Below are positions 15,001-40,370 of a DNA stretch of 42,074 bases, piece by piece (positions within the stretch are counted from its first letter, which is position 1; each line of letters opens with the position of its first letter). This DNA is from Candidatus Nanohaloarchaea archaeon (GTDB lineage: Archaea; EX4484-52; GLR71): NCBI GenBank assembly GCA_013138765.1, contig WTCB01000067.1:1-42074 (forward strand), given 5' to 3'. The position numbers and the translations under genes were made by a program. The notes below the pieces were generated by a model. That model was not told the origin of the DNA, did not search any database, and saw only the letters and a list, made by a program, of their open reading frames with translations.

Positions 15001-18000
15001 ATTCAACAAGACAATATTATGATTATGGATTTAATACTACTGATGTGCTTGTGTATGGATTTAGTGAAATATCAAAAATATTACCATTGAACCTCTCAAG
15101 CTATCTTGCAGGATATGATGTGCCGGTACAGTGTATTGTAATTGATGCAAATACAACTGAGAATCTTACTGATTATAATGTGAGCTTCTATAAGAATGAT
15201 GTGTTCCAGAGCTCAAATCTGACCGATTTAAATGGGACTGCTTTATGGATGTGGGTCACTGATTCAGAGCCATATGGTTGGTATAATATCAGCTGTAAAA
15301 TATCAAATGATGATACTTTGTATTATACGCCTGCAGTATCTTATGCAAATACAACTGTTAGGGTCAACAGGACATTGATGATACAAAGCATAGTGCTCTC
15401 TAATCCTGATATCTATAGAAATGATTCATTTACACCTTATGATACAAACATAACTGTTAACATATATGATGCATTGTTCGGTCCTGCAGATAATGCAGAT
15501 GTATGGTTCTATAATTCAACAGGATTTATGGATAATTGTACAACTGATGCATTTGGTAATTGCCATATTGGATATAATGCACCAGATAATATTACACCTC
15601 AAGGGTATGCTGTTTATGTAAATGCTACAAAGGCAGGGCTTGAAAATTCAACTACAGACAATACAACAATCGGTGTCTATGGATTATTGTATATAAATAT
15701 AACTGGACCTGCTGATGACAGTTCTTGGAGTAAGGCGATAACATTAAATCTTTCTTCTTATATTGAAAATGAGAATGGCTATATAGACACTGCAACTGTT
15801 GATTGGTATATCGATTCTGGTTTTGTTGCAACAGGACAGAATACTACATATCCATTAGTATCGCAGATGCCTGGGCCAAAAACATTGCAATCAAATGCTA
15901 CAAGACCCTATTATGTAACAGGTACTGATAATATCTCATTGAACATAAATGGTCTTGTTGATGTGATGTGGTGGTTCCCTCTCAATGGTTCCAAACAGGC
16001 ATATCCCGGGTCTTTTGATGTACAGTGTCTTGTGAAAGATAATACTTCAGGGTTGTCTGTGGAGGGGTATGCAGTTGATTTCTGGTATCTTAATGATTCA
16101 AGTTATGTATATAATGGGACATATGCAACAAATGAATTAGGTCTTGCCGGGTTCACATGGTATCCTGAATCAAAAGGTGTTTTAGATTTCAAGTGTAACA
16201 TTACTGATAATGCTACTGTGTTTTATTCGCCAAATATTGGAGAAGCGTTCGCTACAATAATAATAGAAGATATAAATCCGCCTGCGATAACTAATATCAG
16301 CATAATTCCAAACAAAACGATTGAAGCAAATCTGAATTATACAAACATAACCGCTGTTGTCACTGATGATATTTTAGTGTACTCAGTCATTGCAAGCATT
16401 ACGCTTCCGAATGGTACAGTTGTCAATGAGACTATGAATAATATATTCAATGATACTTACCGTGTTGAATATCTGTCACCAATCGGAGGAAATTATTCTG
16501 TCGATATTGTCGCAAGCGATTCGCCGCCAGAGAATAATACAAATGCGGTATATGCCGGAAATATTTCAGTATGGGGTAAGGCTGATATGGTCGGGGAAAG
16601 GACAGATGAATATGTCGCTTTCGGTATCACTCAGGTGTCCGGAGAATCGTTTATGTTGACAGTCAATGCGACAAATAATGGTCCAGCCAATGCTTATGAT
16701 GTGTCTATAACTGTTACTGAGGACCCAATCGGTACTGTGACTTATAATACTACAAATTATGATTGCGGTAATCTGAGCGTGGGAGAGATGTGTTCAAGGG
16801 ATTTCCTTGTTACAGTACCTCCAAAGACTGCACCGCAACTCATAACAGTCTACAGTACAATCTGGTGGGACAATCCTGACAAGACACCTAACTCGACAGT
16901 CGGTATAACTTTGATTGATGTTGCATCAAATCCTGTAATTGATATTCTTGAAGCATTCATTCAGAATCAGACTGTGCATGGTGAAACTACAACTATCGGA
17001 ACATTGACAGTCAGTTCTGCGGGTAATGATTATGTAGATAATATTGTATTGGATAAAGTTGGAGATACGCTTGCTCTTTCCTGTCCATTATGTAACCTGA
17101 CAATATCAAAGTCAACTGAAGAGACTTTGCCTGCGGGTGATTATTTTATTTCTGAAATATCAATAGACATCCCCTATGGACAGAGTGCGGGTGATTATTG
17201 GACTTATGTATCTGCTAAATCAGACAATGCACCTCAAGATTTGGTCATTGTAAATGCTACTGTACCTCTTGATGTAACTTGGGAGCGGGTGCCAACTACA
17301 TTTGGGACTATTTTAGCTCTTGTAAATACAGATACTACACTTATAGGTACAATTACTGCAAAGAATAACGGTAATTCTGAAAGGAACATGATAGTCCAAT
17401 CAGGCGGTAATGGTTCATTGTTTGTTACGAAGTCGCCGGGGTCATTTACGATGGGCATAGGTGTGTCTGCAAATGTTACAATCAATTATTCAATTCCTGC
17501 CTTAACAACGCAAGGTATGTATTATGTACAAGTACATATACGAGATTCAACGGCCGACCCTGCGGATGGGATTACTGACTTTTGGTTAAATGTGACTGAT
17601 CTGCCACCGGTAATATCTAATTTGTCTATTGTTCCATTAGGCTATGAACCGGATGTTGGCCATTCAAATATAACTGCGCAAGTGACAGACAATGTTTTGG
17701 TTTCACAGGTATGGCTGAATTCGACAAAACCAAATGGTTCTGAGTTTATAGACTATTTTACTTTAAACGGAAGTGATGCATATCTTAATTACAGTGAGAA
17801 TGAGATAGGAGTACATAAGGTTAAGATATGCGCAAATGATACGGCCAACCTTATCAGCTGCACTCAGGCGTATAACATAAGTGTAATGGTCAATACAACA
17901 GTTGTTACAGAGACAAACATAACTAATGTTACAATTTATGGTGTCTTGTTTGATTCTGGCCTTAATGTAACATTTAATTTCACAACATTCAATGCTGGAT

Positions 18001-21000
18001 ATTCGAGAGCTCTTGAGGTTAATACAACAGCTGCATATCCCGCTTTATGGAATGTGTCGCCATCACAATGGAGTATGGGCGACATAATCAACACACCATA
18101 TACCGGTGAGGCAGTCTTGTCTATACCTAAAGATGTGATTGGTGTATATTATATTAATTTCACATCAAACTGGACAAATTATGATGGTACAAATGATACA
18201 CTTATGACACCTATCAAAATAGTTATAGGTTCTAATCCGGAGCTTAATGTGACTGATGGACCAGCATTGCTTGTGATTGAAAGCGGTAAATCTGCAAGCC
18301 AGAATTTGACGCTTGAGTCAATCGGTAATGATAATGCATCGGATATACAGTTCAATTGTACAGGCGGGATTGCTTGTGCGGATTTCAATGCGTCTTTTGA
18401 TCCAGCAACAATCATGACACTCAATAAAAGTGATAGTGCCAATTTCACAATCAATATTTCTGTTCCTATAGGTTATTCGACAGGTGTATATGATGGGATA
18501 TTTAATGTCTATACAGCTAAGACAAATACATCTGTGAACATTACGGTCGTAATACCTGCTAATCTGACATGGGCACATAATCCAATCATAATATCAAAAG
18601 ATGTCGTTGCAAACACTACAGGTAATTTTGGTTCGGTCCGGGTATCTAACATAGGTAATTTACCATTAGGAGTTTCTGCAAGCGTTACAAATACAACATT
18701 GTTTGCAGTAAATTCTAGTTGGGTTGATTTACCTGTCGGGAATCATTCAGATGCCATGATCAATTATACAGCACCAGAATTATTCAGCCTTAATACTTAT
18801 ACTGCATATTTCCGTACGACTAACATGACAGCATTACCATCAACTCGAGAAACATTATTGAACATAACAATACATCCGTTGTATCTAGACATCCTTTCAC
18901 CTACGTCAATATCTCCAGTGCTGAACGTTTCAGAAGGAAAGAACCTAACTGCTGCATTTAATCTTACTTATGCGTCTGTGCCTTTATCTGATAATGTTAC
19001 ATGGCAGATAAATTTGACCAATGACGGTCTATCACATTTGGTAAACATAACAGATATCAATTATTCTGTCGTATCTAATCTTTGGACAATCAATTTCACT
19101 GCGCCGGATATTCTTGCAGGTGTGGGTTATGATCTGGTGGCCAATGTATTTGATGTGTTAAATAACATCAATGTAATCGCAGCTGAAAAAGATGCAGTCA
19201 TATATGTAGATACTATACCACCAGAGCTTTCAGTAGATATGGTGTCCAGCATAATCAATGGCAGTGCTGTGCCAATATATGTGAATACAACTGATGTTGG
19301 AGGGATGGATTATCTATTGATTGAGATAACAATGCCAAATGGAACTGTGGTCTCATACAATGCAACTCTTATAAGTTCTGTCGGCAATGATTATTTCTAT
19401 AATCTCGACTTTACTGAGACTGCACTTTTAGGTCCATATCCAGCTGTCATAAGTGCATATGATCTTTCAGGTAATGTAAACACAACAAATGCAACATTTG
19501 ATTCGTATCTTCCTACATATTTCAGCGGTTATGCGTATGATCTTGAGAGTGTTGATAATGAGACAGCGGTACCTTTAGAGTTTAATATGTATAAGAACAA
19601 TGTTTTCGAATTGATGCATAATATCAATTCTGATAATGTCACCGGGCTTTATAACGAAAGTGTTTATGTCAGGTTATATGATGTAAGTGTTGATGTATTG
19701 AATGTTACTTTAAACTTCAATGATTTCAGCATGCCTCCCGGCGGTATTTTCAATCCAGTCGTCTTTGGTGATATCCCAGTTTCATTAATTGGTGCGGGAC
19801 CTAAGAAGGCGATATATCTTGATAATGCTATGGATACGAACCCAAATATTATATTTGATTATTCGCCATATGATGATGTGGCTGTAAGTGACCTTGCGGT
19901 GTACCAGTGTGACAATTGGACCATAAAGACAGGATGCGTCAATCAGTGGATAAGAAAGAATGCATCAGTTGATACTTTCTCAAGAACGGTTTCATTTAAT
20001 GCTACAAGTGTGACCGGGGCATATGCGTTAGCACAATATCTCTGCGGGAATAATGTGTGTGAAGCTGATTATGGTGAATCTAACTCAATATGTCCAACTG
20101 ATTGTGTTATAGATGTGCCATCATTCCCACCTATGCCTGCAGTACCAACATCTGGTGGCGGCGGCGGTGCTGGCGATGGTGCAAGTTCCGGTGAAGGTGT
20201 AGGCGCTGGAGACGGTGGTGCTGGTGGAGAAGGTGATTTAACGCCTGAGACTGTAGATGAGGAAGTAGTGCCTATCGAAATAAAATCAACATTGCTTTAT
20301 ATTACGCTTGCTCCGGGCGAGAAATCAATACATTCAATTGAAATCAAGAATAATCAGGATAAAAGAGTAACATCACAGTTAAGTGTAGATGGGTTGATAT
20401 GGGATCTTATTCAGCTTGAGAAAACTGAGATAACGGTTGATAAAAAATCAACAGAGAATGTAAAGATTTCAGCATATGCGTTACCTTCTACAATGCCTGG
20501 GATATATACTGGGGACATTGTCGTAAAGACAGGGACTATGATATATAGGACTCCTGTTACTGTAAAGGTTGAAGTCAAAAAAGAAGCATTGCTGGATGTC
20601 ATAATTGAGACTTTGTCAGATATAGTCAAGCCGGGCGATGAAGTAAAGATTATGGTCACCGTCAAGAACATGGGAGAAACTGAAACTGTTGAAGATATAA
20701 TATTGGAGTATGTAATTAAGAATCTTTATGATGACACTGTCCTTACAACTTATACTGAGACACTTGCAGTCAATCAGTCATTGTCTTATATAAAATCATT
20801 AGAGATTCCAAATATCACTAAAGAAGACCGTTATGTAATCAATGTAAATGCTAAATATGCAAATGGTGATAAATTTGCAACGTCTGCGGCAGTCATTGAT
20901 GTAAGTACAAAACCATGGCCTATCGTAATACTTCTTCGGCTGTCTAAGAGCTGGGTAACTTATGTCATATTGTTGATAGTGTTGCCTGGTCTTTATTTTG

Positions 21001-22139
21001 GACGAAAGGCATATATGTCGTACTTAGATAAGAAGAAGAAGGCTGCAAGATACATATTCCCTATGGATTATTCAAAACTGCCGCAGAAGGGTGAAGAAAG
21101 TGTTAAGGTGGGTAAGATTGCAGAGACTGATGTCAATGCGTATATCAATATAAAGAATCTGACTATGCACTCAATTGCGGCAGGCGGTACAGGTTCAGGA
21201 AAGAGTGTAACTGCCATGTCAACAGCTGAAGAACTTTTAGATTTAGGCCTGCCTGTAGTTGTGTTTGATCCAACAGCTCAATGGTCCGGATTTATAAGGC
21301 CATGCAAAGATCAGCATATGCTTGATCTGTATCCTAAATATGGCCTTAAACCGGAACATGCTAAATCATATAAGACAAACATAATTGTTGTTGAAAGTGC
21401 AGATAGTCTAACTGATGAAGAGATAGATATTCGTCAGTATATGAAACCTGGCGAAATAACAGTATTTGTCATGAGTAAGCTGTCGTCATCAGAACTTGAT
21501 AAGTTTGTAAGGAGGACAATCAAGAGCATATTTGCGATTCAGTGGCCGGAAGCAAAGACTTTGAAAGTGCTTATAGTCTATGATGAGATGCATAGGCTTT
21601 TGCCTAAATACGGTGGTAAGGGCGGTTATCTTGAACTTGAACGTGGATGCCGTGAATTTAGAAAATGGGGTCTTGGTCTGTTTATGATATCTCAGGTATT
21701 GGCGGATTTCAAGGGCGCAATAAAAGCTAATGTCGCAAATGAAATTCAGTTAAGGACAAAGTATAATGGTGATATACAGCGTATCAAGCAAAGATATGGT
21801 CCTGATTATGCTACCCGTGTGGCAAGACTTACAGTCGGTGCAGGACTTATACAGAATCCGGAGTACAACGAAGGTAAACCATGGTTTATCCAGTTCAGGC
21901 CACTCAGACATGACACGGGCAGATTAAGCAATGAGGAGCTTGATGTCTATATGGGCCTGAAGAAATCAATTGATGAGATTGCGTCAAAAATTGCTAAATT
22001 TAAATCAAAAGGTGTAGATACTTATGATATTGAGATAGAACTCAATATGGCCCGTACAAAGTTGCAGCAGGGTGTATTTAAGATGTCTGAAACATACATA
22101 CAATCTTTGAAAGCAAGACTTGAGTCCATGTCATCTTAG
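3..22139 (+). CDS. Giant repeat-rich surface protein, 5'-truncated by the window edge (at least 7,378 codons visible). It comprises a huge N-x-S/T-rich ectodomain, a single TM helix and a C-terminal cytoplasmic FtsK/HerA-superfamily ATPase.
   Basis: The ORF track gives 66..22139, ending at TAG 22137-22139. Translating the same frame from nt 3 to 65 gives INITLADECGLDISNAELNIT with no stop. That peptide matches the recurring 'N(V/I)T.RAN.TSDC' subdomain, so TTG-66 is an ORF-caller artefact and the gene starts upstream of the window. There are no in-frame stops over 22 kb in an AT-rich sequence. Confidence 0.9.
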   Translation: MNITLADECGLDISNAELNITLNNTDVGAADYCTDVINLGSGNYSCEWETTVTGVGRYDVIVKAYNVTYHNNGTITLVDSFRVIPPINNAPNLTNNTMLYDIDGWGATFNFSVEVYDKDYDTVNVSFWISSDNSTWVFEDSKNCTACNEWNQLNFSYDGFSCSDQQEWYYKFNATDYENDTELSGVNFTVEKDDVTVVYSVGGGNATYVNRTSPGTTQLIFSVFDADNVSNPVLSAGSNGSFWVSYNDTTYDTGYFNQTNSTGNLNYIFKPSCSPKYAIGPQNWTGGIKGDTCYFDTNDTESLIVYVVGEMNETLVTPLGGDFFENDNVSIRVNLTQECDVADIVVDAAVDFSVHHDTYSATCSVVNEADGNYNCTWNVTGAPGGWYNITVNSTRQYLNSISKLKINSFFHQINPVIFDASADKSSVVWGNDPAKSQVTFTVNVTDDDDTVDVYLWESLGSATGPWTLADQTTCVDCINTTKTFTRTYSACGEIGTWYWKINASDTDTLSDEEPVYNFNVTKRAVYFVHDSGNNTDVVRTGTNTTTLKVRAFDNYTDANLGSGMQGYFWVTTNGTATEIWGNQLSDTTDFQGYVEYDFEPGCSSPLYLTGTQDWKAGIMGGSCYLDTNSTFFELDINGSLSNSLDVPVPTERYEKETDMTFFGTLSDDCTATTGTYVSSADTVKFDVTGVNTYLCSAFTDFGNGTYSCDWNNIGPFLGLHNVTLNSTKAYYDASSVLVEEAFRIGIAPEMGETYVDVLSDGWGYNYTFKVEFRDMEPDDTDNITFYKAYSDAGPWYTVASEERFNGVSWSNITFNKIFDCSDLISGPYLYYKFNVTDSFGFTDESVIKNITLEKDDIDVIYISGEYVSIDREGSDSAYFKVLINDTDFGTVVAGDINATVWKTFDAASYDSGNATVTDANGYVNYSFDPDCGYSTSDAQYWLIGTTGNTCYANKNMTVPKQFAIVGQLKNNLYRPLQSSVFNVTDGVFFNVSTTTDCPAEGAQTGASVILNLTHSGSTTYECSPVNDEGTGVYNCTWDSTAKLEGNYTVNMTSTLVNYNLNNTWWTERFWLENKNTTYDNESVTPLSGGWSRNFTFNLSVLDIEADDVTCTLFTNTTGTWVERGQSIVTGGVGNCSILVWDFTPTDVGSASYKFMVEDAEISNTFNTTVFTGLTITKPVVSVTFESLNDTAVNRSDGSDTLVVRVYDTENKSYVNNSNVTFWVTTDGLNIDAGSVFTTNVTGHASFAFTPTCTPYYEAGHQLWLAGVTDDNYVNSNTTLNYTTTIYGQMTNLVSSPAGEKYLRGEENVTIRANITSDCSSLETMNETSVNFTITSQHTGTSYGCTTEIYNETTGYYNCTFDTGGKEPRGYNITMNSTQEFYLIDISTDVYSAGVESFWIETRPTLVAPNITPVSGGWGERHYFTVNSTDYDLDTLIVKAWFRKDGDSYAPANSLTNNTISGVDQYVTFSPKIFGTSDADTTWYYKFNVTASDGDGYTNETIEQSFYVEPDTTYLEYITGNNTIVNRSALPTDPDYNVTFMFRAWDVDKDPDAIIIGKKIKFYVTDDTVSNYRPYPALPTSYLYTNATGYQKYVFEPDCSYDVGPQKWKAGILDNPEFNSTNSSDFYFNITTVPLAAMLDYPIGAITFEKGVDNILLRGNVSDDCGLVSGANVNISVMQGGTTYAECYPAGDEMSGWYNCTIANTIHNTWPVGLYNVTIKADKAYYNDSDIFVVENAFRLVTRPVLSNPTATSTQGGTLGGWGELWTFTVDIQDPDFDSSNVSFWINRTGSWEFMDSVIWAQGNPTITFADKTFSCSGAVDLGVKQYKFNVSDDYDYTDEISSAMTLEKDDTDAIPTGTGGQSVDRNGTVTILLQTQLMDTDKGYSAVGPGVDGKVWITVNGSDVGSFDDGYALQTDASGYLNYNFDINCSYTTGEHAWMGGTSGSACYKDSAYPTEYFDSLGKLYTDVESPVNGSSYGTGTPVFFRVNVTSDCVDEGLIDSELKGIELQSPSSSWTSCSPINSEGGADLGWYNCTWDSTFKEPGNWTIRTNASNDTYYTAVNTWVDHFELLNNPPSYSDMDGTPDTGAWGTVYTFSVNFTDSDADDVDCDLYVTTDNGATWVLRNSTTLASPAVCNLTVSDFDCGDIGTDNYFKFGLDDGYNPINTTNVSGPNITVNNIEMIYVDGNDQDVDRSYGTLPLKVYVNDTIKGGSVSPAVAVYFNITIDGSTYVLDGSNTTSNGNATYEFTPSCSYYPGEQMWYAEVNDSCYTPKNTTEYNLTVYGTLTNTLDVPTGVEYFLNNNITLRANVTSDCAAEVMNETDVTFRYFRTGYSSTCPVNNESTGYYNCTFNNTGMPPGYYDFEMNSSQSFYNTDSRVFSYVYGISSFWLETLPILTAPTVSPGVGGWGETFYFVTNATDRDLDTMTVRLWLRKMPGGSWIMKNSTTAQGINQTVNLSTKFPSGGDMGDWEFNFTVTADDSWDVYGTQNVSFTVEANDVRIEILSGNDSIVNRSSLPGNSNPDVTFSVRIFDDDRDVLILDPVNTRFYVTKDGSNFETLATVSNDTSEFYVTLDPDCTYGIGPQMWKVSSVFSGNSWYKLTNTTDQNFNITTIPLSANIAEPNGITRVRGVDDIFIRVNVTDECGLVAGASSVVVVERSAIPYFTCPPDATMSDEANGYYNCTVPSASTTIWTTGEYDVKIDSSKAYYNSSVTYLKNNAFRLVTVSKLDNPVITSVSSIGSSDYGWGEDWTFEVDVLDEDNDNVNVYLWVNLTGSWELLNSTVCTNCGGSTHTISFTGHDFLCTDIGTPDFKFNVSDDYSYTNETAGTFNIIKDDTITYYGLIGDSSQIDREGNDAETFSIKIRDADVGAYVGTTIPNSTGKIFVTTDGATYDAGTSNTTNALGYLYYTFDPDCSYEVGAQKWYGGPRDDACYKDSNSPVFDTSLVGQLKSSIINPVYSSSVFVGSIVNLNASIFDECLVPVSGVSITHEAVSPFNIFEDIVPVVNNSVGHYNSTWDTMFHQGGNWSFRINASKINHYGNSTIFSNWTYLNNTVPVAENFTVSPEVEGWGRVYTYGVQIYDTQFDNITCDLYVSTDNGALWVLKNSTFIETVPTSGYANCTLSASDFDCSEIGTDNMYKFQIFDGTNKFNTSSISGPNLTVDTVSIEYIYGNDSIVNRSGAQTTLFSTRVLDVDKGSIPVMDSSSVTFWTTYDNAVYNTGSSVSTNSTGYADYIFNPACTPIKYEVGPQYWVAGVTDSCYSDINTSSNYTTTIYGSMDNQILSPLGTKFIEGIDNVTIRSNVTSDCSLEETMNETLVNFTMTSQYLGTQYGCTTEVYNETTGYYNCTFETSGKDPREYNITMNSTQMYYITNVTTSSYSSGTSSFRIENIPVMTAPTVSPGVGGWGEIFYFATNVTDADDDIMTVRLWLRKKPSGSWILKNSTTVQGSDVVVNLSTKFISGNDIGDWEFNYTVTADDSWDVYGTQNVSFTVEPNDVRIELISGDNSIVNRSSLPGNSNPDVTFVVSVFDDDRDILIADPANTRFYVTKDGINFTTLATVSNDSGYFYATLDPDCTYDVGPQMWKASSVFSGNSWYKMTNSSDFSFNITTVPLSANMVQPDGITRVRGVDDIFIRGNVTDECGLVDGASSVFTVEKSEIPYFTCPPDATVFDEDNGYYNCTVPSASTSGWSPGDFDVKIETSKAYYNSSETVTSANAFRLVTVPEVDNPVITTTSTMGISDFGWGEDWKFEVDIFDDDNDDVNVYLWVNLTGDWELLNSTVCTNCGGTTHTISFSGHDFVCSDIGTRDFKFNVSDDYSYINETSGAFNIIKDDTITYYGSVGDGSQIDREGNDDELFAVRVRDADVNAYAGSTIPAATGKIFVTTDGSTYDAGTSNTTDPSGYLYYTFNPDCSYGVGAQTWYGGPAGDSCYKDSNSPVFDTDFIGQLKSGIINPVYGSNIFVGNIVNFNTSIFDECIVPVSDVTITHEAASPFNLFEDIAPAVNNSIGHYNSTWDTMFHQGGNWSFRINASKTDYYSNSTIFSNWTYLNNTPPTVENFTVSPDVEGWGRIYAYEAQISDTQFDNITCDLYVSTDNGGSWILKNSTFIETVLTGGNANCTLSSSDFDCSEIGTDNMYKFQIYDGTNKFNTSSKSGPNLTTDTVSIEYLYGNDSVVNRSGNQITLFSARVLDVDKGSIPVMNDSSVTFWTTHNNVVYNTGIVISTNSTGYADYQFNPTCSPVNYGVGPQYWKAGVTDSCYAQTNFTQENYTTTIVGDLINTIENPAYGTEYLRGENVTLSSVTSPTITDDCLLGLENINNDITFYNEYGVANYSCSSEEVAGGYYTCTRNTTDMVARFYDTEMISWEPYYNNGTILLQDHIFVKTVPNMTDEVAITSVGGWGETFYFSVNVTDEDLDNVTLNLYVKDTASGFWGAPKNSTVLYSPQGEYVTLSWSDAPYCTVGIWEYRFEASDTHGDVSFTDSHNFTIEKDDVEVQYSFGDGSYVWRNGSDSTTLTLDIVDSDRNNLSVGTGTSARFWVTTDANDSGSWDIGKDTATLDGEIDYYFMQQFPEGGQKCDYTVGIQKWKGGIFNDICYKDKNSTEYDLSVNSSLVPNVTNVYSQGYLRGDHIPLLTSVYDDCGPVSNVTLSYSLLNMPNQYVCDKQNNVGWNESDGDYNCTWDSTNKPYKWYNVTASVSKEFFVPNMTSGNDRFFLGITPQLESLSVYPEVGGWGENHQFNVRLTSFDLATNNVSLWKSFDNVSWDLVNWQTVIMPIGQWVQFNERFTCNDYLTPPSGVNYYKIISENVFGFSSETLVYNYTLEYDNITLVITPATNDTVRRLGADDAFLEARIYDTDYGVYQNNTDANIWVTKDGATFSYNESCSSDDGYCGIIYNPQCDSGVGLQNWKIEVYDSCYQNINSTDVTLSVIGQLYSNVINPSLDDILNKNTTTSFNTTVFDDCDNNILDASVSWYNSTPILLGTGYNVSWNIPLNYTKGPETIITNSTRQYYDYGFNTTDVLVYGFSEISKILPLNLSSYLAGYDVPVQCIVIDANTTENLTDYNVSFYKNDVFQSSNLTDLNGTALWMWVTDSEPYGWYNISCKISNDDTLYYTPAVSYANTTVRVNRTLMIQSIVLSNPDIYRNDSFTPYDTNITVNIYDALFGPADNADVWFYNSTGFMDNCTTDAFGNCHIGYNAPDNITPQGYAVYVNATKAGLENSTTDNTTIGVYGLLYINITGPADDSSWSKAITLNLSSYIENENGYIDTATVDWYIDSGFVATGQNTTYPLVSQMPGPKTLQSNATRPYYVTGTDNISLNINGLVDVMWWFPLNGSKQAYPGSFDVQCLVKDNTSGLSVEGYAVDFWYLNDSSYVYNGTYATNELGLAGFTWYPESKGVLDFKCNITDNATVFYSPNIGEAFATIIIEDINPPAITNISIIPNKTIEANLNYTNITAVVTDDILVYSVIASITLPNGTVVNETMNNIFNDTYRVEYLSPIGGNYSVDIVASDSPPENNTNAVYAGNISVWGKADMVGERTDEYVAFGITQVSGESFMLTVNATNNGPANAYDVSITVTEDPIGTVTYNTTNYDCGNLSVGEMCSRDFLVTVPPKTAPQLITVYSTIWWDNPDKTPNSTVGITLIDVASNPVIDILEAFIQNQTVHGETTTIGTLTVSSAGNDYVDNIVLDKVGDTLALSCPLCNLTISKSTEETLPAGDYFISEISIDIPYGQSAGDYWTYVSAKSDNAPQDLVIVNATVPLDVTWERVPTTFGTILALVNTDTTLIGTITAKNNGNSERNMIVQSGGNGSLFVTKSPGSFTMGIGVSANVTINYSIPALTTQGMYYVQVHIRDSTADPADGITDFWLNVTDLPPVISNLSIVPLGYEPDVGHSNITAQVTDNVLVSQVWLNSTKPNGSEFIDYFTLNGSDAYLNYSENEIGVHKVKICANDTANLISCTQAYNISVMVNTTVVTETNITNVTIYGVLFDSGLNVTFNFTTFNAGYSRALEVNTTAAYPALWNVSPSQWSMGDIINTPYTGEAVLSIPKDVIGVYYINFTSNWTNYDGTNDTLMTPIKIVIGSNPELNVTDGPALLVIESGKSASQNLTLESIGNDNASDIQFNCTGGIACADFNASFDPATIMTLNKSDSANFTINISVPIGYSTGVYDGIFNVYTAKTNTSVNITVVIPANLTWAHNPIIISKDVVANTTGNFGSVRVSNIGNLPLGVSASVTNTTLFAVNSSWVDLPVGNHSDAMINYTAPELFSLNTYTAYFRTTNMTALPSTRETLLNITIHPLYLDILSPTSISPVLNVSEGKNLTAAFNLTYASVPLSDNVTWQINLTNDGLSHLVNITDINYSVVSNLWTINFTAPDILAGVGYDLVANVFDVLNNINVIAAEKDAVIYVDTIPPELSVDMVSSIINGSAVPIYVNTTDVGGMDYLLIEITMPNGTVVSYNATLISSVGNDYFYNLDFTETALLGPYPAVISAYDLSGNVNTTNATFDSYLPTYFSGYAYDLESVDNETAVPLEFNMYKNNVFELMHNINSDNVTGLYNESVYVRLYDVSVDVLNVTLNFNDFSMPPGGIFNPVVFGDIPVSLIGAGPKKAIYLDNAMDTNPNIIFDYSPYDDVAVSDLAVYQCDNWTIKTGCVNQWIRKNASVDTFSRTVSFNATSVTGAYALAQYLCGNNVCEADYGESNSICPTDCVIDVPSFPPMPAVPTSGGGGGAGDGASSGEGVGAGDGGAGGEGDLTPETVDEEVVPIEIKSTLLYITLAPGEKSIHSIEIKNNQDKRVTSQLSVDGLIWDLIQLEKTEITVDKKSTENVKISAYALPSTMPGIYTGDIVVKTGTMIYRTPVTVKVEVKKEALLDVIIETLSDIVKPGDEVKIMVTVKNMGETETVEDIILEYVIKNLYDDTVLTTYTETLAVNQSLSYIKSLEIPNITKEDRYVINVNAKYANGDKFATSAAVIDVSTKPWPIVILLRLSKSWVTYVILLIVLPGLYFGRKAYMSYLDKKKKAARYIFPMDYSKLPQKGEESVKVGKIAETDVNAYINIKNLTMHSIAAGGTGSGKSVTAMSTAEELLDLGLPVVVFDPTAQWSGFIRPCKDQHMLDLYPKYGLKPEHAKSYKTNIIVVESADSLTDEEIDIRQYMKPGEITVFVMSKLSSSELDKFVRRTIKSIFAIQWPEAKTLKVLIVYDEMHRLLPKYGGKGGYLELERGCREFRKWGLGLFMISQVLADFKGAIKANVANEIQLRTKYNGDIQRIKQRYGPDYATRVARLTVGAGLIQNPEYNEGKPWFIQFRPLRHDTGRLSNEELDVYMGLKKSIDEIASKIAKFKSKGVDTYDIEIELNMARTKLQQGVFKMSETYIQSLKARLESMSS
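4191..7160 (+). repeat. Three-module (~3 kb) super-repeat, oldest and most diverged copy
   Basis: It starts at the boundary motif FWIETRPTLVAP..GGWGE. Its module order (A-type 'LW.RK', B-type 'VNV..W.N.TG.WE', C-type 'CDLYV.TDNG') is the same as in the next two units. Unit length is 2970 nt. Confidence 0.7.
7161..10151 (+). repeat. Three-module super-repeat, copy 2 (2991 nt)
   Basis: It starts at FWLETLPILTAPTVSPGVGGWGETFYF. It is colinear with 10152-~12800 at roughly 80% nucleotide and 80-85% amino-acid identity by eye. The G-W-G anchors 7221/8235/9204 lie exactly 2991 nt from 10212/11226/12195. Confidence 0.85.
10152..13133 (+). repeat. Three-module super-repeat, copy 3 (2982 nt)
   Basis: It starts at FRIENIPVMTAPTVSPGVGGWGEIFYF. 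High identity to copy 2 extends to about nt 12800. The last C-subdomain (12800-13133) is diverged. Confidence 0.85.
14889..16265 (+). repeat. Two copies of a ~160-aa bi-domain unit (14889-15375 and 15789-16265), separated by an unrelated ~138-aa beta-rich segment
   Basis: By-eye alignment of ASVSWYNST...VQCIVIDANT...YNISCKISNDDTLYYTP with TATVDWYIDSG...VQCLVKDNTS...LDFKCNITDNATVFYSP. The shared W-Y, ATR.YY, VQC.V.D and C.I....FY.P positions line up. Confidence 0.5.
16266..18877 (+). repeat. Two tandem ~440-aa cassettes (16266-17594 and 17595-18877). Each is a 'D.PP.I.N.S..P' Ig-like domain followed by three CARDB/ASH(PapD)-like beta-sandwich domains. A third PP-type Ig-like domain starts at 19206.
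   Basis: Parallel motifs in both cassettes: EDINPPAITNISIIP / TDLPPVISNLSIVP / VDTIPPELSVDM; SNPVIDILE / SNPELNVTD; L(T/E)(V/S)..(A/I)GND..(D/N); and 'G.Y...(V/F)...' domain endings. Confidence 0.6.
20043..20105 (+). other. Four-Cys motif CGNNVCEADYGESNSICPTDC. It belongs to the CG.G.CE....E....CP.DC class common in archaeal and bacterial secreted proteins.
   Basis: Direct translation. The codons are in frame with the giant ORF. Confidence 0.7.
20154..20237 (+). other. Gly/Ala/Asp/Glu low-complexity linker (GGGGAGDGASSGEGVGAGDGGAGGEGD)
   Basis: Direct translation. This is the only G+C-rich stretch in the gene. Confidence 0.8.
20949..21002 (+). other. Single predicted transmembrane helix of the giant protein (SWVTYVILLIVLPGLYFG)
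   Basis: A hydrophobic run is followed immediately by RKAYMSYLDKKKKAARY, consistent with the positive-inside rule. N-x-S/T sequons are very dense before it and nearly absent after it. Confidence 0.75.
21180..21206 (+). other. Walker A / P-loop (AGGTGSGKS)
   Basis: Direct translation, matching GxxGxGK[ST]. Confidence 0.9.
21567..21593 (+). other. Walker B-like strand (VLIVYDEMH), of the hhhhDE.H type found in HerA
   Basis: Direct translation. It lies about 120 residues after Walker A. Confidence 0.7.
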
Positions 22140-22182: not shown

Positions 22183-24174
22183 ATGACCCGAAAAAAAGGC
22201 AAGGCTAAAGAAAGTGAATTCAGTGGTATGAGCCTGGATGGCCTTCAGGATAAAAAGAAAGAGATCAAAGATTTTCTTGCATCTTTAGAGAATGATTATC
22301 GTAATGCTACCATCTCTGAAAAAAGTTATAAACACACAAAAGAGATCAATCTGAAAAAAATGATTGATGTAAAAAAACAGCTTGAAGATTTTGGCATTAC
22401 TGATACTGATGATGAATCTGATTCAAGTTCTTCTACTGGCGGGGATAAATCAACAACTGCAGCTCCTGGTGCAACTGCGACAGATGCAACTTCGGGAGAT
22501 AATGCGTCTGTGAATAATGTTCCAGTTGATAATGTGCCTGTAGCTGAGGGTTCAGTCGGTAATGCATCTGTAGATCCTGTTGAGTCTTCATCGCAATCGA
22601 CAAATAATCAACAAGAGGATAAAAGTTCTGAAGTATCAGATGCTTTATTAAATGAGGATACTAAGCATCTGTCTATAGCGGATAAATTAAAGCAGTTTGT
22701 GGCATTATCAAATGCAGTCGCGGAGCAAAAAGCTAAGAACACATCAAGCGGTCCTGCAGGAGCTTCGGGTTCATCTGTTCCTTCTCAACCGGTTCAAACA
22801 GTTCAAGCATCCCAGACAAGTCAAGCGAGCAGTGCACCAGCACAGAATGTTGAGATGTTAATGCAAAAATTTTCAGAAAAGATCAATGTTGATCTTGAAC
22901 GCATCAAAGCCAATATCGATTCGTCTAAAGATATGCGTGCGTCGACAGATGAAAAGGTACAGACAGTTATGGAAGGCCTTACAGAACTTAGAACTACTGT
23001 GTTTCAAAGAGAAGCAGGGTTGAAAGAGCAGGAACTCAAGTTTACAAGGGTTAAAGAGCTTGTAGATGATATTGAACCTGAAAAGATCAACAAGGAATTC
23101 ATGAAACGAGATAAATTTATGTCTGAAATGGAAATTCGTATTGAAAAGTTAGAAGTTAAGATGGAAGATTTCATTAAAGCAATAAAACATACAGAAGGTC
23201 TGCTGAAAAGTATTGGCGGGCTTGAGAATGTGGCAGAGATTGATCATAAGGTTGCAAAAAAATTGGAACAGATAATTGAGACTGAAAAATCTATGGAGCA
23301 TCTCTCTTCAAAAATGGAAAAGATGTTTATCAGCATAAATCAGAAACTTGAAGATTTTGATACCTATGAAGCAAGACAGGAAAATATGAATGAAATAATG
23401 GATGATATGCTCAAGAACGTTGATCAGCTTGGTGTTAAATTTGAGAATTATATTGACAAAAAGGATATGATAAAAGTACAAGATAATGTGGATTCATTGT
23501 CTGAAAAGATAGAGTTGATGATGGGTATCCTGAAAAAAGCTGTTCCTTTTGCTGAAGCTGAAATTCCAAAAGAGCTCCAGGAGCTTGAAGAGAAACGTGA
23601 GGATATAGAAAGTATCTTATCTACACTTGAACATGAACATAATAAGAAACAGATTGCGGATAAGGACTATAAAAGTATCAAGAAAAAAAATGAAGTTGTT
23701 CTGGACAAGGTTAAATCAGATATTAACAAATTCATGAAAAAGATGAGTAAAGATGCGGCACATAATGTATCTTCTGGTCCAAAACAAAAGAGGGATACAA
23801 AAGAGCCAATTAAAGACACGACCAATAAAACAGATGTCGATGTTGAGTCGCCTCATGATAATACGGTTTCGGAAGAAAATGAAAAAGAATCAGATGAAAT
23901 TAAATCTGAAGCTGTTAAGTCGGAAGATGTTGAATCAGAGGCCGTCAAGTCAGATGATGTCAAGTCAGATGAATCCAATAAAGATGAAAATGAACAGGAA
24001 TCTGAGCCGTCAAAAAATGAGTCAAGTACGGCTGCTGAAAAAATAATTGAAAGACCTAAAGTTGAAAATGTTGATGTTAATGACCCATTGATTGTCGAAC
24101 TTGAAGAATCGCTTGCTCAAGGGCTTATTTCACAAGACACTTATGAAAAAACAAAAAAATTGATTACAGGTTGA
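22183..24174 (+). CDS. 663-aa coiled-coil protein with no TM or signal peptide. It has a disordered S/T/A/Q/N-rich linker, an acidic K/E/D/S-rich tail, and SHOCT-like short helical motifs near both termini.
   Basis: ATG 22183 lies 7 nt after an AGGT (22172-22175) and 43 nt after the giant gene's stop. Residues ~230-520 are heptad-like and rich in E/K/L/I/M. Sequon density is low, about 7 in 663 aa. Confidence 0.85.
   Translation: MTRKKGKAKESEFSGMSLDGLQDKKKEIKDFLASLENDYRNATISEKSYKHTKEINLKKMIDVKKQLEDFGITDTDDESDSSSSTGGDKSTTAAPGATATDATSGDNASVNNVPVDNVPVAEGSVGNASVDPVESSSQSTNNQQEDKSSEVSDALLNEDTKHLSIADKLKQFVALSNAVAEQKAKNTSSGPAGASGSSVPSQPVQTVQASQTSQASSAPAQNVEMLMQKFSEKINVDLERIKANIDSSKDMRASTDEKVQTVMEGLTELRTTVFQREAGLKEQELKFTRVKELVDDIEPEKINKEFMKRDKFMSEMEIRIEKLEVKMEDFIKAIKHTEGLLKSIGGLENVAEIDHKVAKKLEQIIETEKSMEHLSSKMEKMFISINQKLEDFDTYEARQENMNEIMDDMLKNVDQLGVKFENYIDKKDMIKVQDNVDSLSEKIELMMGILKKAVPFAEAEIPKELQELEEKREDIESILSTLEHEHNKKQIADKDYKSIKKKNEVVLDKVKSDINKFMKKMSKDAAHNVSSGPKQKRDTKEPIKDTTNKTDVDVESPHDNTVSEENEKESDEIKSEAVKSEDVESEAVKSDDVKSDESNKDENEQESEPSKNESSTAAEKIIERPKVENVDVNDPLIVELEESLAQGLISQDTYEKTKKLITG
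23908..23982 (+). repeat. Imperfect 5 x 15-nt tandem repeat encoding (E/D)-x-V-(K/E)-S pentapeptides: EAVKS EDVES EAVKS DDVKS DESNK
   Basis: Read directly: gaagctgttaagtcg / gaagatgttgaatca / gaggccgtcaagtca / gatgatgtcaagtca / gatgaatccaataaa. Confidence 0.7.
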
Positions 24175-31556: not shown

Positions 31557-31620
31557 TGTTTTATATTTTAACTATTAAATCAGTTGATGATTTATCTGTA
31601 ATATGGGCTCTTGAGCACAA

Positions 31621-31640
31621 TTTTTAAGAAATTATATAAG
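31621..31640 (+). promoter_or_regulatory. TATA-like elements (TTTTTAAGAA, ATTATATAAG) forming a possible internal promoter
   Basis: They sit in the largest + strand intergenic gap (115 nt), 32-50 nt upstream of ATG 31672, which has no SD-like sequence. T-runs (TGTTTTATATTTTA, 31557-31570) directly after the preceding stop could act as an oligo-T terminator. Confidence 0.3.
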
Positions 31641-31671
31641 TACTTAAAACCAATATTATTTTGTGTTCTCT

Positions 31672-32220: not shown

Positions 32221-32244
32221 TTATCTATATTACGGGTGCAGTCA

Positions 32245-33009: not shown

Positions 33010-33011
33010 TT

Positions 33012-33017
33012 AAGGAG
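33012..33017 (+). promoter_or_regulatory. Shine-Dalgarno-like AAGGAG
   Basis: It lies 6 nt upstream of ATG 33024 but has zero spacing to ATG 33018, which favours 33024 as the start. Confidence 0.6.
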
Positions 33018-33023
33018 ATGTTT

Positions 33024-40298: not shown

Positions 40299-40316
40299 TT
40301 TTGTGTTATTGGTCCT

Positions 40317-40334: not shown

Positions 40335-40338
40335 AAAC

Positions 40339-40348: not shown

Positions 40349-40370
40349 GATTATAGTTTAATTATATATT

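What the first reader, a model, noticed from the sequence alone, without database searches (positions are those of the whole stretch)
20949..22139. Giant glycoprotein ectodomain fused in frame, through one TM helix, to a cytoplasmic FtsK/HerA-type ring-translocase ATPase
Seen in the sequence: the ORF that encodes about 6,960 extracellular-looking residues continues without a stop through one hydrophobic helix (SWVTYVILLIVLPGLYFG, followed by RKAYMSYLDKKKKAARY). It then runs into a ~290-aa P-loop domain carrying AAGGTGSGKS, VLIVYDEMH, EFRKWGLGLFMISQ and IKANVANEIQLR. N-x-S/T sequons occur about once per 10-14 residues in the ectodomain stretches I counted, but only once in the last ~370 residues. 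This supports an outside/inside topology. Established knowledge: FtsK/HerA-superfamily ATPases are ring (usually hexameric) pumps for DNA or proteins. Examples are FtsK/SpoIIIE, HerA, Streptomyces TraB, VirB4/VirD4, the T7SS proteins EssC/EccC and the archaeal Ced-system protein CedB. Inference: I know of no described family in which such a pump forms the cytoplasmic tail of a multi-thousand-residue adhesin-like protein. Ring assembly would bundle several giant ectodomains into a fibre. Alternatively the ectodomain could hold a target cell while the ring energises DNA or protein transfer at the contact site.
Basis: partly seen in the sequence, partly recalled or inferred. Interest (0 to 1): 0.9.

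Follow-up and report, generated by a model that had tools for sequence, protein, structure and literature searches.

The report
SPEARE-type giant adhesin with HerA tail
This is a real giant cell-surface protein (more than 7,378 residues) of a tiny symbiotic DPANN archaeon whose cytoplasmic end is a HerA-type ring ATPase, but the design was already published in 2019 and 2023 as the "SPEARE" giant surface proteins, so this is a new member of a known and still functionally unsolved family.

Summary
One uninterrupted ORF (window 3-22139, cut by the contig start) encodes at least 6,982 sequon-rich extracellular residues. These are followed by a single TM helix, a P-loop ATPase and three C-terminal helices.

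By sequence and predicted structure, the ATPase belongs to the HerA clade of the FtsK-HerA superfamily. It is not an artefact. The same frame stays open at least 3,300 aa upstream of the ATPase in 41 of 44 related genomes with enough flank, and in a closed nanohaloarchaeal genome.

The claim that no such family is described is wrong. These are the SPEARE/giant surface proteins (Hamm 2019; Reva 2023). The tail is 46% identical (E 1e-129) to that of published BNXNv_0298.

What I add:
- HerA is a better assignment than "restriction enzyme" or "VirB4/TraG".
- The HerA HAS-barrel is replaced by the TM helix.
- The ectodomain is 15 tandem ~331-aa beta-sandwich units, then unique sequence, a Gly-rich linker and a conserved core.
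- The gene is tightly linked to a cytoplasmic coiled-coil protein (77 of 79 loci) and often to a second ~1,950-aa membrane glycoprotein.

Function remains inferred: a host-contact apparatus with a membrane-apposed ring motor.

The parts
3..22139 (+). Giant SPEARE-type gene, 5'-truncated by the contig end (at least 7,378 codons plus stop)
   Evidence: Frame 3 is open from base 3 with no stop in 7,378 codons. The window is a whole 42,074-bp MAG contig.
102..14990 (+). Ectodomain tandem array: 15 copies of a ~331-aa unit (5 super-repeats of 3 unit types), each unit a string of Ig/FnIII/macroglobulin-like beta-sandwich domains rich in N-x-S/T, Cys and Trp
   Evidence: Self-BLAST offsets are multiples of ~331 aa, with 15 copies located. 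Blocks at aa 2300-3300 and 3300-4300 are 75-85% identical. Alignment is A3. The AF2 unit model is all-beta with a core pLDDT above 85. Foldseek hits are RbmA, PECAM-1 and complement MG domains.
14991..20150 (+). Non-repetitive ectodomain region (~1,720 aa), including one NPCBM_assoc/NEW3-type beta-sandwich
   Evidence: Few or no self-hits beyond aa ~4,980. Pfam NPCBM_assoc scores E 3.6e-10.
20151..20198 (+). Gly-rich low-complexity linker SGGGGGAGDGASSGEG separating the variable giant part from the conserved core; candidate processing site
   Evidence: Located. Similar G-rich stretches occur at the same place in P0022 and P0066 and in BNXNv_0298. The cleavage idea rests on gel-fraction proteomics in PMC6642349 and is an inference.
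20199..20948 (+). Membrane-proximal conserved ectodomain (two beta-sandwich domains) shared with short family members
   Evidence: 22% identity, E 3e-13, to the same region of BNXNv_0298. E 5e-5 to the 628-aa short paralog P0099. Conserved columns appear in A1 upstream of the TM.
20949..21002 (+). Single transmembrane helix
   Evidence: It is the only hydrophobic segment in the protein. The AF2 model makes one continuous helix over tail residues 10-40.
21003..21053 (+). Basic juxtamembrane segment RKAYMSYLDKKKKAARY (positive-inside signal)
   Evidence: K+R is 7 on this flank against 3 on the outer flank.
21054..21929 (+). HerA-clade P-loop ATPase core. It has a beta-hairpin remnant in place of the HAS-barrel, then Walker A 21177-21206, FDPTAQW 21264-21284, Walker B 21567-21593, the REFRKWGLG arginine motif 21651-21677 and the sensor ISQ 21684-21695.
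   Evidence: Pfam DUF87 41.3 bits and HerA_C 27.2 bits, both above cutoff. PDB profile hits are only HerA. The AF2 model has pLDDT 93 and pTM 0.88. Foldseek top 37 hits are HerA. The catalytic residues are invariant in 67 homologs.
21930..22136 (+). Conserved C-terminal three-helix region (the 'coiled-coil tip')
   Evidence: Helices at tail residues 336-361, 367-381 and 385-403 in the model. The region is conserved into Nanohaloarchaeota.
22183..24174 (+). Conserved partner 1: a 663-aa cytoplasmic coiled-coil protein with no TM, a low-complexity linker and a conserved core at aa 222-533
   Evidence: A homolog lies on the same strand just downstream of the ATPase in 77 of 79 loci with room. The L002 518-aa gene scores 117.5 bits, E 4e-38, against profile A2, while shuffled and unrelated coiled-coil controls do not score. 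There is no specific Pfam or PDB family.
24180..30098 (+). Frequent partner 2: a 1,972-aa type-I membrane glycoprotein with a signal peptide, 111 sequons, NPCBM_assoc/MG2 beta-sandwich domains, a TM at aa 1868-1891 and an ~80-aa basic cytoplasmic tail
   Evidence: Pfam hits are and hydropathy and sequons. The best match is downstream on the same strand in 53 of 82 loci. At least 25 are full-length orthologs at 32-38% identity. It is absent from the nanohaloarchaeal locus L002.

Best explanation
Identity (probability about 0.9). The gene encodes a SPEARE-type giant surface protein of a DPANN archaeon. The closest relatives are Aenigmarchaeota, although the NCBI bin is labelled Nanohaloarchaea.

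Anatomy (shown by tool results):
- A heavily N-glycosylatable fibre of several dozen beta-sandwich domains: 15 tandem ~331-aa units, about 45 domains if each unit holds three, plus further ones in ~1,700 unique residues.
- A Gly-rich linker.
- A conserved core also found as stand-alone 550-700-aa proteins. The core is two membrane-proximal beta-sandwich domains, one TM helix, a HerA-clade ATPase whose HAS-barrel is replaced by the TM helix, and a three-helix C-terminus.

Mechanism (inferred):
- Like all characterised HerA/FtsK-superfamily members, the tail assembles into a ring, probably a hexamer, lying flat under the symbiont membrane (probability about 0.7). The invariant Walker A, Walker B, arginine and sensor residues support this.
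- Ring assembly would cluster about six fibres and six TM helices at one point of host contact.
- The ring is coupled to the always-adjacent cytoplasmic coiled-coil protein and, in this clade, to a second giant membrane glycoprotein.
- ATP hydrolysis most likely threads a polymer (DNA or an unfolded protein) through the ring's central channel at the cell-cell junction (probability about 0.4). The direction and substrate are unknown.
For: ORF and motifs:
- One continuous ORF with one TM, positive-inside charge, a sequon excess of 361 against 120 expected, and a Cys split of 119 against 2.

HerA assignment:
- Pfam DUF87 and HerA_C score above their cutoffs.
- A profile of 67 tails hits only HerA-clade chains in the PDB: 4d2i at 1.8e-10, plus 8wiv, 9c1m, 9x1l, YjgR, 8xau and 8ziq.
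- The AF2 model has pLDDT 93.
- The top 37 Foldseek hits are HerA. The first non-HerA hit is TcpA at rank 38.
- Catalytic residues are invariant in 67 homologs of 45-89% identity.

Family membership:
- The tail is 46% identical, E 1e-129, to the tail of published BNXNv_0298.

Not an artefact:
- In 41 of 44 species-representative genomes with a full 10-kb flank, the frame upstream of the ATPase is open to the locus edge, at least 3,297 aa.
- Of 143 newly retrieved 50%-cluster representatives among the best hits, 68 are at least 2,000 aa and 20 at least 4,000 aa, with a maximum of 7,878 aa.
- The apparent breaks in the 90%-identical relative L001 are 100-N scaffold gaps.

Module:
- The coiled-coil partner is present in 77 of 79 loci and in Nanohalovita.
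- The second glycoprotein is downstream in 53 of 82 loci.

Cytoplasmic bridges between a nanohaloarchaeon and its host are reported in PMC11001535.
Against: - No experiment or multimer model supports ring formation, substrate or direction.
- The conserved module contains no polytopic membrane protein. Six single TM helices are a thin basis for a DNA- or protein-conducting pore. By comparison, FtsK, TrwB and the Ced/T4SS systems use multi-pass channels (my own knowledge plus PMC9905601).
- No nuclease, relaxase, pilin or VirB6-like gene was detected in the window's called ORFs of at least 100 aa.
- HerA rings in anti-phage systems also act as scaffolds or activators, so a ring does not prove transport.
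- The tail reaches no NCBIfam equivalog cutoff. HerA scores 43.7 against 800 and CedD 39.2 against 600.
- Topology rests on hydropathy, charge and sequon bias, not on a dedicated predictor.
Confidence: 0.55

Rival explanations
1. The tail is a non-translocating hub. It is an ATP-regulated oligomerisation and anchoring module. It bundles the giant fibres and couples them mechanically to a cytoplasmic coiled-coil scaffold, like an adhesion plaque. It may also control assembly, turnover or shedding of the ectodomain. Nothing passes through the ring.
For: - The module has only single-pass proteins and no channel component.
- The universally linked partner is a coiled-coil protein.
- Distant family members carry 200-450-aa coiled-coil or P/A-rich extensions directly on the ATPase and no enzymatic domains.
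- Published proteomics found the ecto part and the TM-plus-cytoplasmic part in different size fractions, which suggests processing.
Against: - Every catalytic residue, including the arginine motif, is invariant across phyla. That argues for sustained ATP turnover rather than a structural role.
- All characterised relatives with this fold thread DNA or peptides (established knowledge of the FtsK-HerA superfamily).
Confidence: 0.25
2. It is a bona fide type IV secretion component. The tail is a VirB4/TraG ATPase and the giant protein is a 'straw' that injects effectors into the host (Reva et al. 2023).
For: - VirB4, VirD4/TraG and HerA share one superfamily.
- Weak sub-threshold hits exist to T4SS-DNA_transf (18.7 bits against cutoff 20.1) and TraC (20.2 bits against 567).
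- In BNXNv_0298, AAA_10 scores 30.2 bits, just above its cutoff of 27.5.
Against: - HerA families score best in both the window and the nanohaloarchaeal proteins.
- No VirB4, VirD4 or TrwB chain reaches E 0.01 in the PDB profile search.
- The top 37 Foldseek hits are HerA.
- The VirB4 N-domain PF03135 claimed for the short paralog is not detected even at E up to 10. That N-terminal region is a signal-peptide-led extracellular beta-sandwich.
- No VirB2, VirB6 or VirB8-like neighbours were found.
- A chain of beta-sandwich domains has no lumen, so 'straw' is not a structural inference.
Confidence: 0.12
3. The cytoplasmic tail is a type III restriction-enzyme-like domain that degrades imported DNA (Hamm et al. 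2019).
For: Pfam ResIII scores 28.3-29.1 bits (cutoff 22.5) on the nanohaloarchaeal tails.
Against: - ResIII models a helicase-type P-loop, not a nuclease.
- In the window it scores 18.1 bits, below its cutoff. In every protein scanned (and nine distant members) it scores below DUF87 and/or HerA_C.
- No nuclease domain is found.
- The fold is HerA.
- Reva et al. 2023 already rejected this reading.
Confidence: 0.02
4. Assembly or annotation artefact: two separate genes (an adhesin and a membrane ATPase) wrongly joined, or a chimeric contig.
For: - The source is a short-read MAG contig and the gene is highly repetitive.
- Stand-alone short forms of the core exist.
- The gene caller split the close relative L001.
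Against: - The junction is reproduced in dozens of independent assemblies and in a closed genome.
- The L001 breaks are scaffold N-gaps.
- GC content is continuous across the junction.
Confidence: 0.01

Closest known systems
SPEARE / giant surface proteins of Nanohaloarchaeota (NAR1_1133 5,998 aa; Ca. Nanopetramus SG9 8,553 aa; BNXNv_0298 8,880 aa; SVXNc_0300 9,409 aa) - Hamm et al. 2019 PMC6642349; Reva et al. 2023 PMC10266531
   Same: - Multi-thousand-residue extracytoplasmic chain of Ig-like domains, a single C-proximal TM, a conserved cytoplasmic P-loop tail and a C-terminal helical tip.
- The tail is 46% identical, E 1e-129.
- The membrane-proximal domains are weakly conserved.
- The coiled-coil neighbour is conserved.
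   Different: - A different lineage, with Aenigmarchaeota-like relatives.
- The ectodomain repeats are unrelated in sequence to any Pfam family.
- No tandem short paralog follows the giant gene in this window.
- A ~1,950-aa second glycoprotein partner is present here but absent from the nanohaloarchaeal locus.
- No laminin-G, protease or toxin domains were detected.
HerA DNA translocase/helicase (Sulfolobus HerA 4d2i; HerA-NurA 9x1m, 7f6d) and anti-phage HerA rings (SIR2-HerA 8wod, DUF4297-HerA 8zit)
   Same: - Best sequence and fold match for the RecA-like core.
- Shared motifs: Walker A, hhhhDE-x-H Walker B, RE-x-RK-x-G-x-G and SQ.
- These proteins are hexameric rings.
   Different: - The N-terminal HAS-barrel is replaced by a TM helix, leaving only a beta-hairpin.
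- No NurA, Mre11, Rad50, SIR2 or DUF4297 partner is present.
- It is membrane-anchored and fused to an extracellular protein.
- NCBIfam HerA equivalog cutoffs are missed by a wide margin.
CedB/TedB of the archaeal Ced/Ted DNA-import systems and bacterial VirB4 (PMC9905601)
   Same: These are membrane-associated HerA/VirB4-like ATPases thought to power DNA movement between archaeal cells at contact sites. A weak local NCBIfam hit to 'CedD DNA-translocating ATPase' scores 39.2 bits.
   Different: - No CedA/VirB6-like polytopic channel or VirB2-like pilin lies nearby.
- The score is far below the family cutoff of 600.
- Those ATPases are not fused to an ectodomain.
FtsK/SpoIIIE, Streptomyces TraB, TcpA, TrwB/VirD4 and T7SS EssC/EccC
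   Same: Same superfamily. All have an N-terminal membrane anchor followed by a cytoplasmic ring ATPase that pumps DNA or protein at a septum or contact site. TcpA is the first non-HerA Foldseek hit, at E 9e-10.
   Different: - Pfam FtsK_SpoIIIE scores 16.9 bits, below its cutoff of 24.
- Those proteins have 2-5 TM helices and little extracellular mass.
- There is no gamma domain, FHA domain or tandem ATPase domains.
Other giant prokaryotic surface proteins (halomucin of Haloquadratum; giant proteins of Omnitrophota/CPR, West-Roberts et al. 2023 as cited in PMC11001535)
   Same: Size, repetitive beta-sandwich build and a proposed role in cell-cell interaction.
   Different: To my knowledge those are not described as having a C-terminal TM plus HerA-type ATPase. 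This comes from memory and was not tested here.

Membership tests
SPEARE / DPANN giant surface proteins | Conserved cytoplasmic C-terminal tail homologous to published SPEARE tails (called 'the most conserved region' by Hamm 2019) | tested here: met
   46% identity, E 1e-129, over TM, ATPase and C-terminal helices against BNXNv_0298.
SPEARE / DPANN giant surface proteins | Multi-thousand-residue extracytoplasmic region made of adhesion-type (Ig-like) domains | tested here: met
   At least 6,982 residues before the TM. They include 15 tandem ~331-aa beta-sandwich units. The model and Foldseek give Ig/FnIII/MG-type folds. Sequons are 3-fold enriched.
SPEARE / DPANN giant surface proteins | Single TM near the C-terminus with the C-terminal domain in the cytoplasm | tested here: met
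   One hydrophobic segment, K+R 3 outside against 7 inside, sequons 361 against 1, and Cys 119 against 2. No dedicated topology predictor was available.
SPEARE / DPANN giant surface proteins | N-terminal Sec signal peptide | not testable with these tools
   The N-terminus lies beyond the contig start. Short family members do have one.
SPEARE (name-giving domains of 2019: serine protease, laminin-G, toxin, restriction endonuclease) | Presence of protease, laminin-G, toxin or endonuclease domains | tested here: not met
   Pfam finds none in 7,357 aa at E up to 0.001. Reva et al. 2023 argue that these are not real features of the family. I therefore do not treat them as defining.
SPEARE / DPANN giant surface proteins | DPANN archaeal origin | tested here: met
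   Among hits that carry a source name or record title, nearly all are DPANN MAGs or isolates, apart from one 'Heimdallarchaeota' bin and one 'Altiarchaeota' bin. The window contig is an NCBI 'Nanohaloarchaea archaeon' MAG.
HerA clade (FtsK-HerA superfamily) | P-loop core with Walker A, Walker B (DE), conserved arginine motif and sensor; profile match above the curated threshold | tested here: met
   DUF87 scores 41.3 bits (cutoff 23.2) and HerA_C 27.2 (cutoff 22). The motifs are invariant in 67 sequences.
HerA clade (FtsK-HerA superfamily) | HerA-like three-dimensional core | tested here: met
   Foldseek hits 4d2i at E 2.1e-14 with TMq 0.52, and the top 37 hits are all HerA. The model has pLDDT 93.
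HerA proper (DSB-repair helicase) | N-terminal HAS-barrel domain | tested here: not met
   Only a beta-hairpin (tail residues 59-75) lies between the TM helix and Walker A. The Pfam and PDB matches start at the hairpin.
HerA proper (DSB-repair helicase) | NurA/Mre11/Rad50 operon partners; NCBIfam equivalog score | tested here: not met
   No such neighbours were found. HerA_Thermprot scores 43.7 bits against a cutoff of 800.
HerA clade (FtsK-HerA superfamily) | Hexameric ring with a central channel | not testable with these tools
   Only monomer prediction was available. This is inferred from homology and the invariant arginine motif.
VirB4 / T4SS ATPase | CagE_TrbE_VirB N-domain (PF03135) and an AAA_10 or TraC-type match above threshold | tested here: not met
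   PF03135 is absent from the short paralog P0099 and from the BNXNv_0298 tail at E up to 10. It is also not among the window tail's hits at E up to 0.01. The window tail has no AAA_10 hit at E up to 0.01. TraC scores 20.2 bits against 567. No VirB4 chain appears in the PDB profile hits.
VirB4 / T4SS ATPase | Adjacent VirB2/VirB6/VirB8-type or CedA-type membrane components | tested here: not met
   The neighbours are single-pass or secreted proteins with only beta-sandwich Pfam hits.
FtsK/SpoIIIE | PF01580 above threshold; multi-pass N-terminal membrane domain | tested here: not met
   PF01580 scores 16.9 bits against a cutoff of 24. There is one TM only.
Type III restriction enzyme (ResIII) | PF04851 above threshold together with nuclease or methylase context | tested here: not met
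   ResIII scores 18.1 bits against a cutoff of 22.5 in the window. There is no nuclease domain. The hit covers only the generic P-loop region.

The most novel reading that the evidence does not exclude
The giant HerA-tailed adhesin, the universally linked cytoplasmic coiled-coil protein and (in this clade) the second ~1,950-aa membrane glycoprotein would together form a previously undefined, DPANN-wide cell-cell junction machine. It would be evolutionarily distinct from T4SS and Ced systems. A HerA-type ring fused directly to the adhesin would pump DNA or protein between symbiont and host, possibly underlying the cytoplasmic bridges seen by cryo-ET.
Probability: 0.25. Interest if true: 0.8.

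Novelty: new member of a known kind. Interest (0 to 1): 0.4.

Why it matters
DPANN archaea depend on physical contact with host cells, and how they attach and exchange material is an open question. SPEARE-type proteins are the leading candidates, but their cytoplasmic domain has been annotated in two conflicting ways.

This analysis contributes three things:
- It places the tail in the HerA clade, with the membrane helix in the position of the HAS-barrel.
- It shows the architecture is the rule rather than the exception. In 41 of 44 related genomes the frame stays open at least 3,300 aa upstream. There are 353 cluster representatives at E up to 1e-30, with lengths up to 7,878 aa.
- It defines a conserved partner set.

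Together these give concrete, testable targets: ring assembly, substrate, the coiled-coil partner, and processing at the Gly-rich linker.

For the scan itself, the lesson is that the finding is genuine but not new. Its value lies in refinement, not discovery.

Tried and rejected
1. SHOCT-like motifs (G-h-I-S-x-x-x-Y-x-x-x-K) occur at the ends of the 663-aa protein and in the tail of the 1,972-aa protein. Pfam SHOCT scores only E 0.029, below its cutoff, so I do not claim this.

2. Family assignment of the 663-aa partner failed. The PDB profile search and a Pfam scan of 72 members give only generic coiled-coil noise (SMC, GCN4, designed bundles, Baculo_PEP_C and similar).

3. I tested for a Rosetta-stone fusion of the ATPase with the partner. 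None of 143 representatives matches the partner profile. The extensions after the ATPase are unrelated coiled coils or P/A-rich linkers with a DUF5752-like motif.

4. Apparent frameshifts in the 90%-identical relative L001 turned out to be 100-N scaffold gaps.

5. The published VirB4 N-domain (PF03135) was not reproducible in the short paralog.

6. I searched for a second ATPase copy or short paralog in the window and found none.

7. There are no tRNAs in the window.

8. The first k-mer-based search for partner homologs found only 3 proteins. A profile built from the loci was needed.

9. Literature searches for a prior HerA assignment or a description of the gene trio in DPANN returned nothing relevant. 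The library does not cover subscription journals, so absence is not proof.


Full report
**1. Observation**

The reading frame containing the finding is open from window base 3 to the stop at 22137-22139. That is 7,378 codons without a stop. The ORF list starts it at 66 only because that is the first possible start codon. The frame in fact runs off the 5' end.

A neighbouring protein is 100% identical to an NCBI MAG protein (GQ477_03395, labelled 'Nanohaloarchaea archaeon') on a contig of exactly 42,074 bp. The window is therefore a whole contig, and the gene's N-terminus is missing.

The whole protein has one hydrophobic segment, SWVTYVILLIVLPGLYFG (nt 20949-21002). It has 3 K/R residues in the 20 residues before it and 7 in the 20 after it.

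N-x-S/T sequons number 361 in the ectodomain, against 120 +/- 10 expected from composition. The tail has 1 against 1.3 expected. Cysteines number 119 in the ectodomain and 2 in the tail.
- The average sequon density is about one per 19 residues, not one per 10-14.
- The scarcity of sequons in the tail is not significant on its own. The signal is the enrichment outside.

**2. What the tail is**

Pfam gives DUF87/HerA-central at 41.3 bits (cutoff 23.2) and HerA_C at 27.2 bits (cutoff 22). FtsK_SpoIIIE, T4SS-DNA_transf and ResIII all fall below their cutoffs.

A profile of 67 homologous tails hits only HerA-clade chains in the PDB at E up to 0.01. These are Sulfolobus HerA 4d2i at 1.8e-10, SIR2-HerA, DUF4297-HerA, HerA-NurA and YjgR.

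An AlphaFold2 model of the tail is confident, with pLDDT 93 and pTM 0.88. Its top 37 Foldseek hits in the PDB are all HerA. The first other protein is the FtsK-like coupling protein TcpA at rank 38.

The model shows, in order:
- a long helix covering the TM and the basic juxtamembrane segment;
- a short beta-hairpin;
- the RecA-like core;
- three long C-terminal helices.

The HAS-barrel that precedes the core in true HerA is absent. The membrane helix occupies that position.

Walker A (G87, G90, G92, K93), Walker B (D220, E221), the RE-F-RKWG arginine motif and the SQ sensor are invariant across 67 sequences of 45-89% identity. NCBIfam gives only local sub-threshold hits, HerA at 43.7 against 800 and CedD at 39.2 against 600. 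The tail is therefore its own family within the HerA clade, not an orthologue of a named protein.

**3. It is a known kind**

Homologs of the tail are abundant and essentially confined to DPANN archaea. Complete short members of 549-699 aa have this layout:
- a signal peptide;
- two or three beta-sandwich domains;
- one TM helix;
- the ATPase;
- the helical tip.

In the closed genome of Ca. Nanohalovita haloferacivicina, the 628-aa short member lies directly after an 8,880-aa gene whose own C-terminus is the same TM+ATPase. The window's tail is 46% identical to it, E 1e-129.

That 8,880-aa protein is BNXNv_0298, described by Reva et al. 2023 (PMC10266531). They report a signal peptide, about 75 Ig-like domains, a TM, a 'VirB4/TraG-like ATPase' and a coiled-coil tip.

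The family was first described as 'SPEARE' proteins by Hamm et al. 2019 (PMC6642349). That paper noted the single C-proximal TM and the conserved cytoplasmic tail, which it read as a type III restriction enzyme. It also noted similar tails in Aenigmarchaeota, Woesearchaeota and Micrarchaeota.

**4. Not an artefact, and common**

A scan of one genome per species found at least 547 relatives.
- Of the 44 best loci with a full 10 kb upstream, 41 keep the ATPase frame open to the edge of the fetched sequence, at least 3,297 aa.
- Where contigs are shorter, the frame is almost always open to the contig end.
- Stand-alone short forms also occur, with 43 to 2,356 aa upstream.

An exhaustive HMMER search of 1.84 billion cluster representatives found 353 at E up to 1e-30. 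Of the 143 newly retrieved among the best hits, 109 are at least 1,000 aa, 68 at least 2,000 aa and 20 at least 4,000 aa, with a maximum of 7,878 aa.

The 90%-identical relative L001 looked broken into three ORFs, but the breaks are 100-N scaffold gaps.

**5. Anatomy of the ectodomain**

- Residues ~34-4,980 (numbered from base 3) are 15 tandem copies of a ~331-aa unit. They are arranged as five super-repeats of three unit types. Two ~1,000-aa blocks are still 75-85% identical.
- A model of one unit is all-beta, with core pLDDT above 85. It matches tandem Ig/FnIII/macroglobulin domains such as RbmA, PECAM-1 and complement C3/C5.
- About 1,700 unique residues follow.
- Next is a Gly-rich linker (nt 20151-20198).
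- Last come about 250 residues that are weakly but significantly similar to the membrane-proximal part of BNXNv_0298 (E 3e-13) and of the short paralog (E 5e-5).

The giant protein thus equals a short-form core plus a linker plus a hugely expanded, fast-evolving fibre.

The linker is a plausible site for the processing suggested by Hamm et al. In their gels the extracellular part and the TM-plus-cytoplasmic part ran in different size fractions. This link is my inference.

**6. Conserved neighbours**

The 663-aa gene at 22183-24174 has no TM, few sequons and a coiled-coil core. A homolog lies on the same strand just after the ATPase in 77 of the 79 loci with room for it.

The corresponding 518-aa gene in Nanohalovita scores 117.5 bits, E 4e-38, against a profile of 72 cores. 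Shuffled sequences and unrelated coiled coils do not score.

The 1,972-aa gene at 24180-30098 has a signal peptide, 111 sequons, a TM at 1868-1891 and a short basic tail. It has downstream same-strand matches in 53 of 82 loci, many full-length at 32-38% identity. None is found in the nanohaloarchaeal locus.

The remaining window genes (30.5-40.3 kb) are small secreted or membrane proteins and are not conserved with the module. I did not find this partner set described in the searchable literature. That search does not cover subscription journals.

**7. Mechanism**

Shown:
- a catalytically intact HerA-type ATPase tethered about 20 residues from the inner face of the membrane;
- its fusion to a glycosylated beta-sandwich fibre;
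- its genetic linkage to a cytoplasmic coiled-coil protein.

Inferred:
- Ring (hexamer) assembly, by homology and the invariant arginine motif.
- Clustering of about six fibres and TM helices as a consequence.
- Polymer threading (DNA or unfolded protein) at the host contact, by analogy with HerA, FtsK, VirD4 and CedB (PMC9905601).

The main argument against transport is the absence of any polytopic channel protein in the module. This keeps a non-translocating hub or anchor role as a serious rival.

The restriction-enzyme reading is rejected. ResIII is only a generic P-loop match and is below cutoff here.

The strict T4SS reading is weakened for three reasons. HerA families outscore VirB4 and VirD4 families everywhere. 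PF03135 is not detectable in the short paralog. No other T4SS parts are present.

**8. Verdict**

It is, however, a new (Aenigmarchaeota-type) member of the published SPEARE/giant-surface-protein family. Its remaining interest is the unresolved function and the refinements made here.

Noticed in passing
window 22183-24174: A 663-aa cytoplasmic coiled-coil protein is almost universally linked to the HerA-tailed gene (77 of 79 loci with room, and also in Nanohalovita). It has no recognisable family. I did not find it mentioned in the SPEARE literature I could search.
   Followed up: yes
window 24180-30098: A second giant type-I membrane glycoprotein of 1,972 aa has 111 sequons, NPCBM_assoc/MG2 domains and a short basic cytoplasmic tail. 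It lies downstream in 53 of 82 related loci but not in the nanohaloarchaeal locus.
   Followed up: partly
window ~6900-12900 (giant protein aa ~2300-4300): A recent tandem duplication of a ~997-aa (3-unit) block is still 75-85% identical at protein level. It is a hot spot for expansion and contraction, and a risk for short-read mis-assembly of copy number.
   Followed up: partly
window 20151-20198; L001 9801-9900: A Gly-rich linker lies between the variable fibre and the conserved core. The same region is a 100-N scaffold gap in the 90%-identical relative. G-rich stretches sit at the same position in P0022, P0066 and BNXNv_0298. It is a possible proteolytic processing site.
   Followed up: partly
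P0192, P0198, P0237, P0238, P0242 (distant family members): About half of the more distant representatives carry 40-450 extra residues after the ATPase. These are either E/K-rich coiled coils or P/A-rich linkers with a repeated 'NHFADWI' DUF5752-like motif. No enzymatic domains are present.
   Followed up: partly
window 22183-22410, 24040-24171, 29850-30095: Short SHOCT-like motifs (G-h-I-S-x-x-x-Y-x-x-x-K-K-L) occur at the ends of the 663-aa protein and in the cytoplasmic tail of the 1,972-aa protein. The motif is also conserved at the end of the partner-core alignment A2. The Pfam SHOCT hit is below threshold (E 0.029).
   Followed up: partly
window 30564-40298: A run of same-strand genes encodes small secreted or single-pass proteins of 185-936 aa, several with signal peptide plus C-terminal TM. 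They are not conserved with the module except sporadically (L026, L028, L062, L076). ORFs 35803-38319, 38195-38980 and 38952-40298 overlap by 125 and 29 nt, so some start codons are probably mis-set by the mechanical ORF list.
   Followed up: no
window ~40300-42074: An ABC transporter ORF with fused permease and ATPase, MsbA-like by eye, runs off the 3' end of the contig.
   Followed up: no
whole window; L007, L040, L070: Taxonomic labels look inconsistent. The contig is labelled 'Nanohaloarchaea' at NCBI, yet its GC is ~37% and all its closest relatives are Aenigmarchaeota MAGs. Family members also sit in bins labelled Heimdallarchaeota (a 3.5-kb contig), Altiarchaeota and Parvarchaeota, which may reflect mis-binning or loose labels.
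   Followed up: no
L002 10001-11887 (CP107255.1): In Ca. Nanohalovita the giant gene is followed, with a 1-nt overlap (TAATG), by a 628-aa short paralog with the same core. The window has no such tandem paralog.
   Followed up: yes
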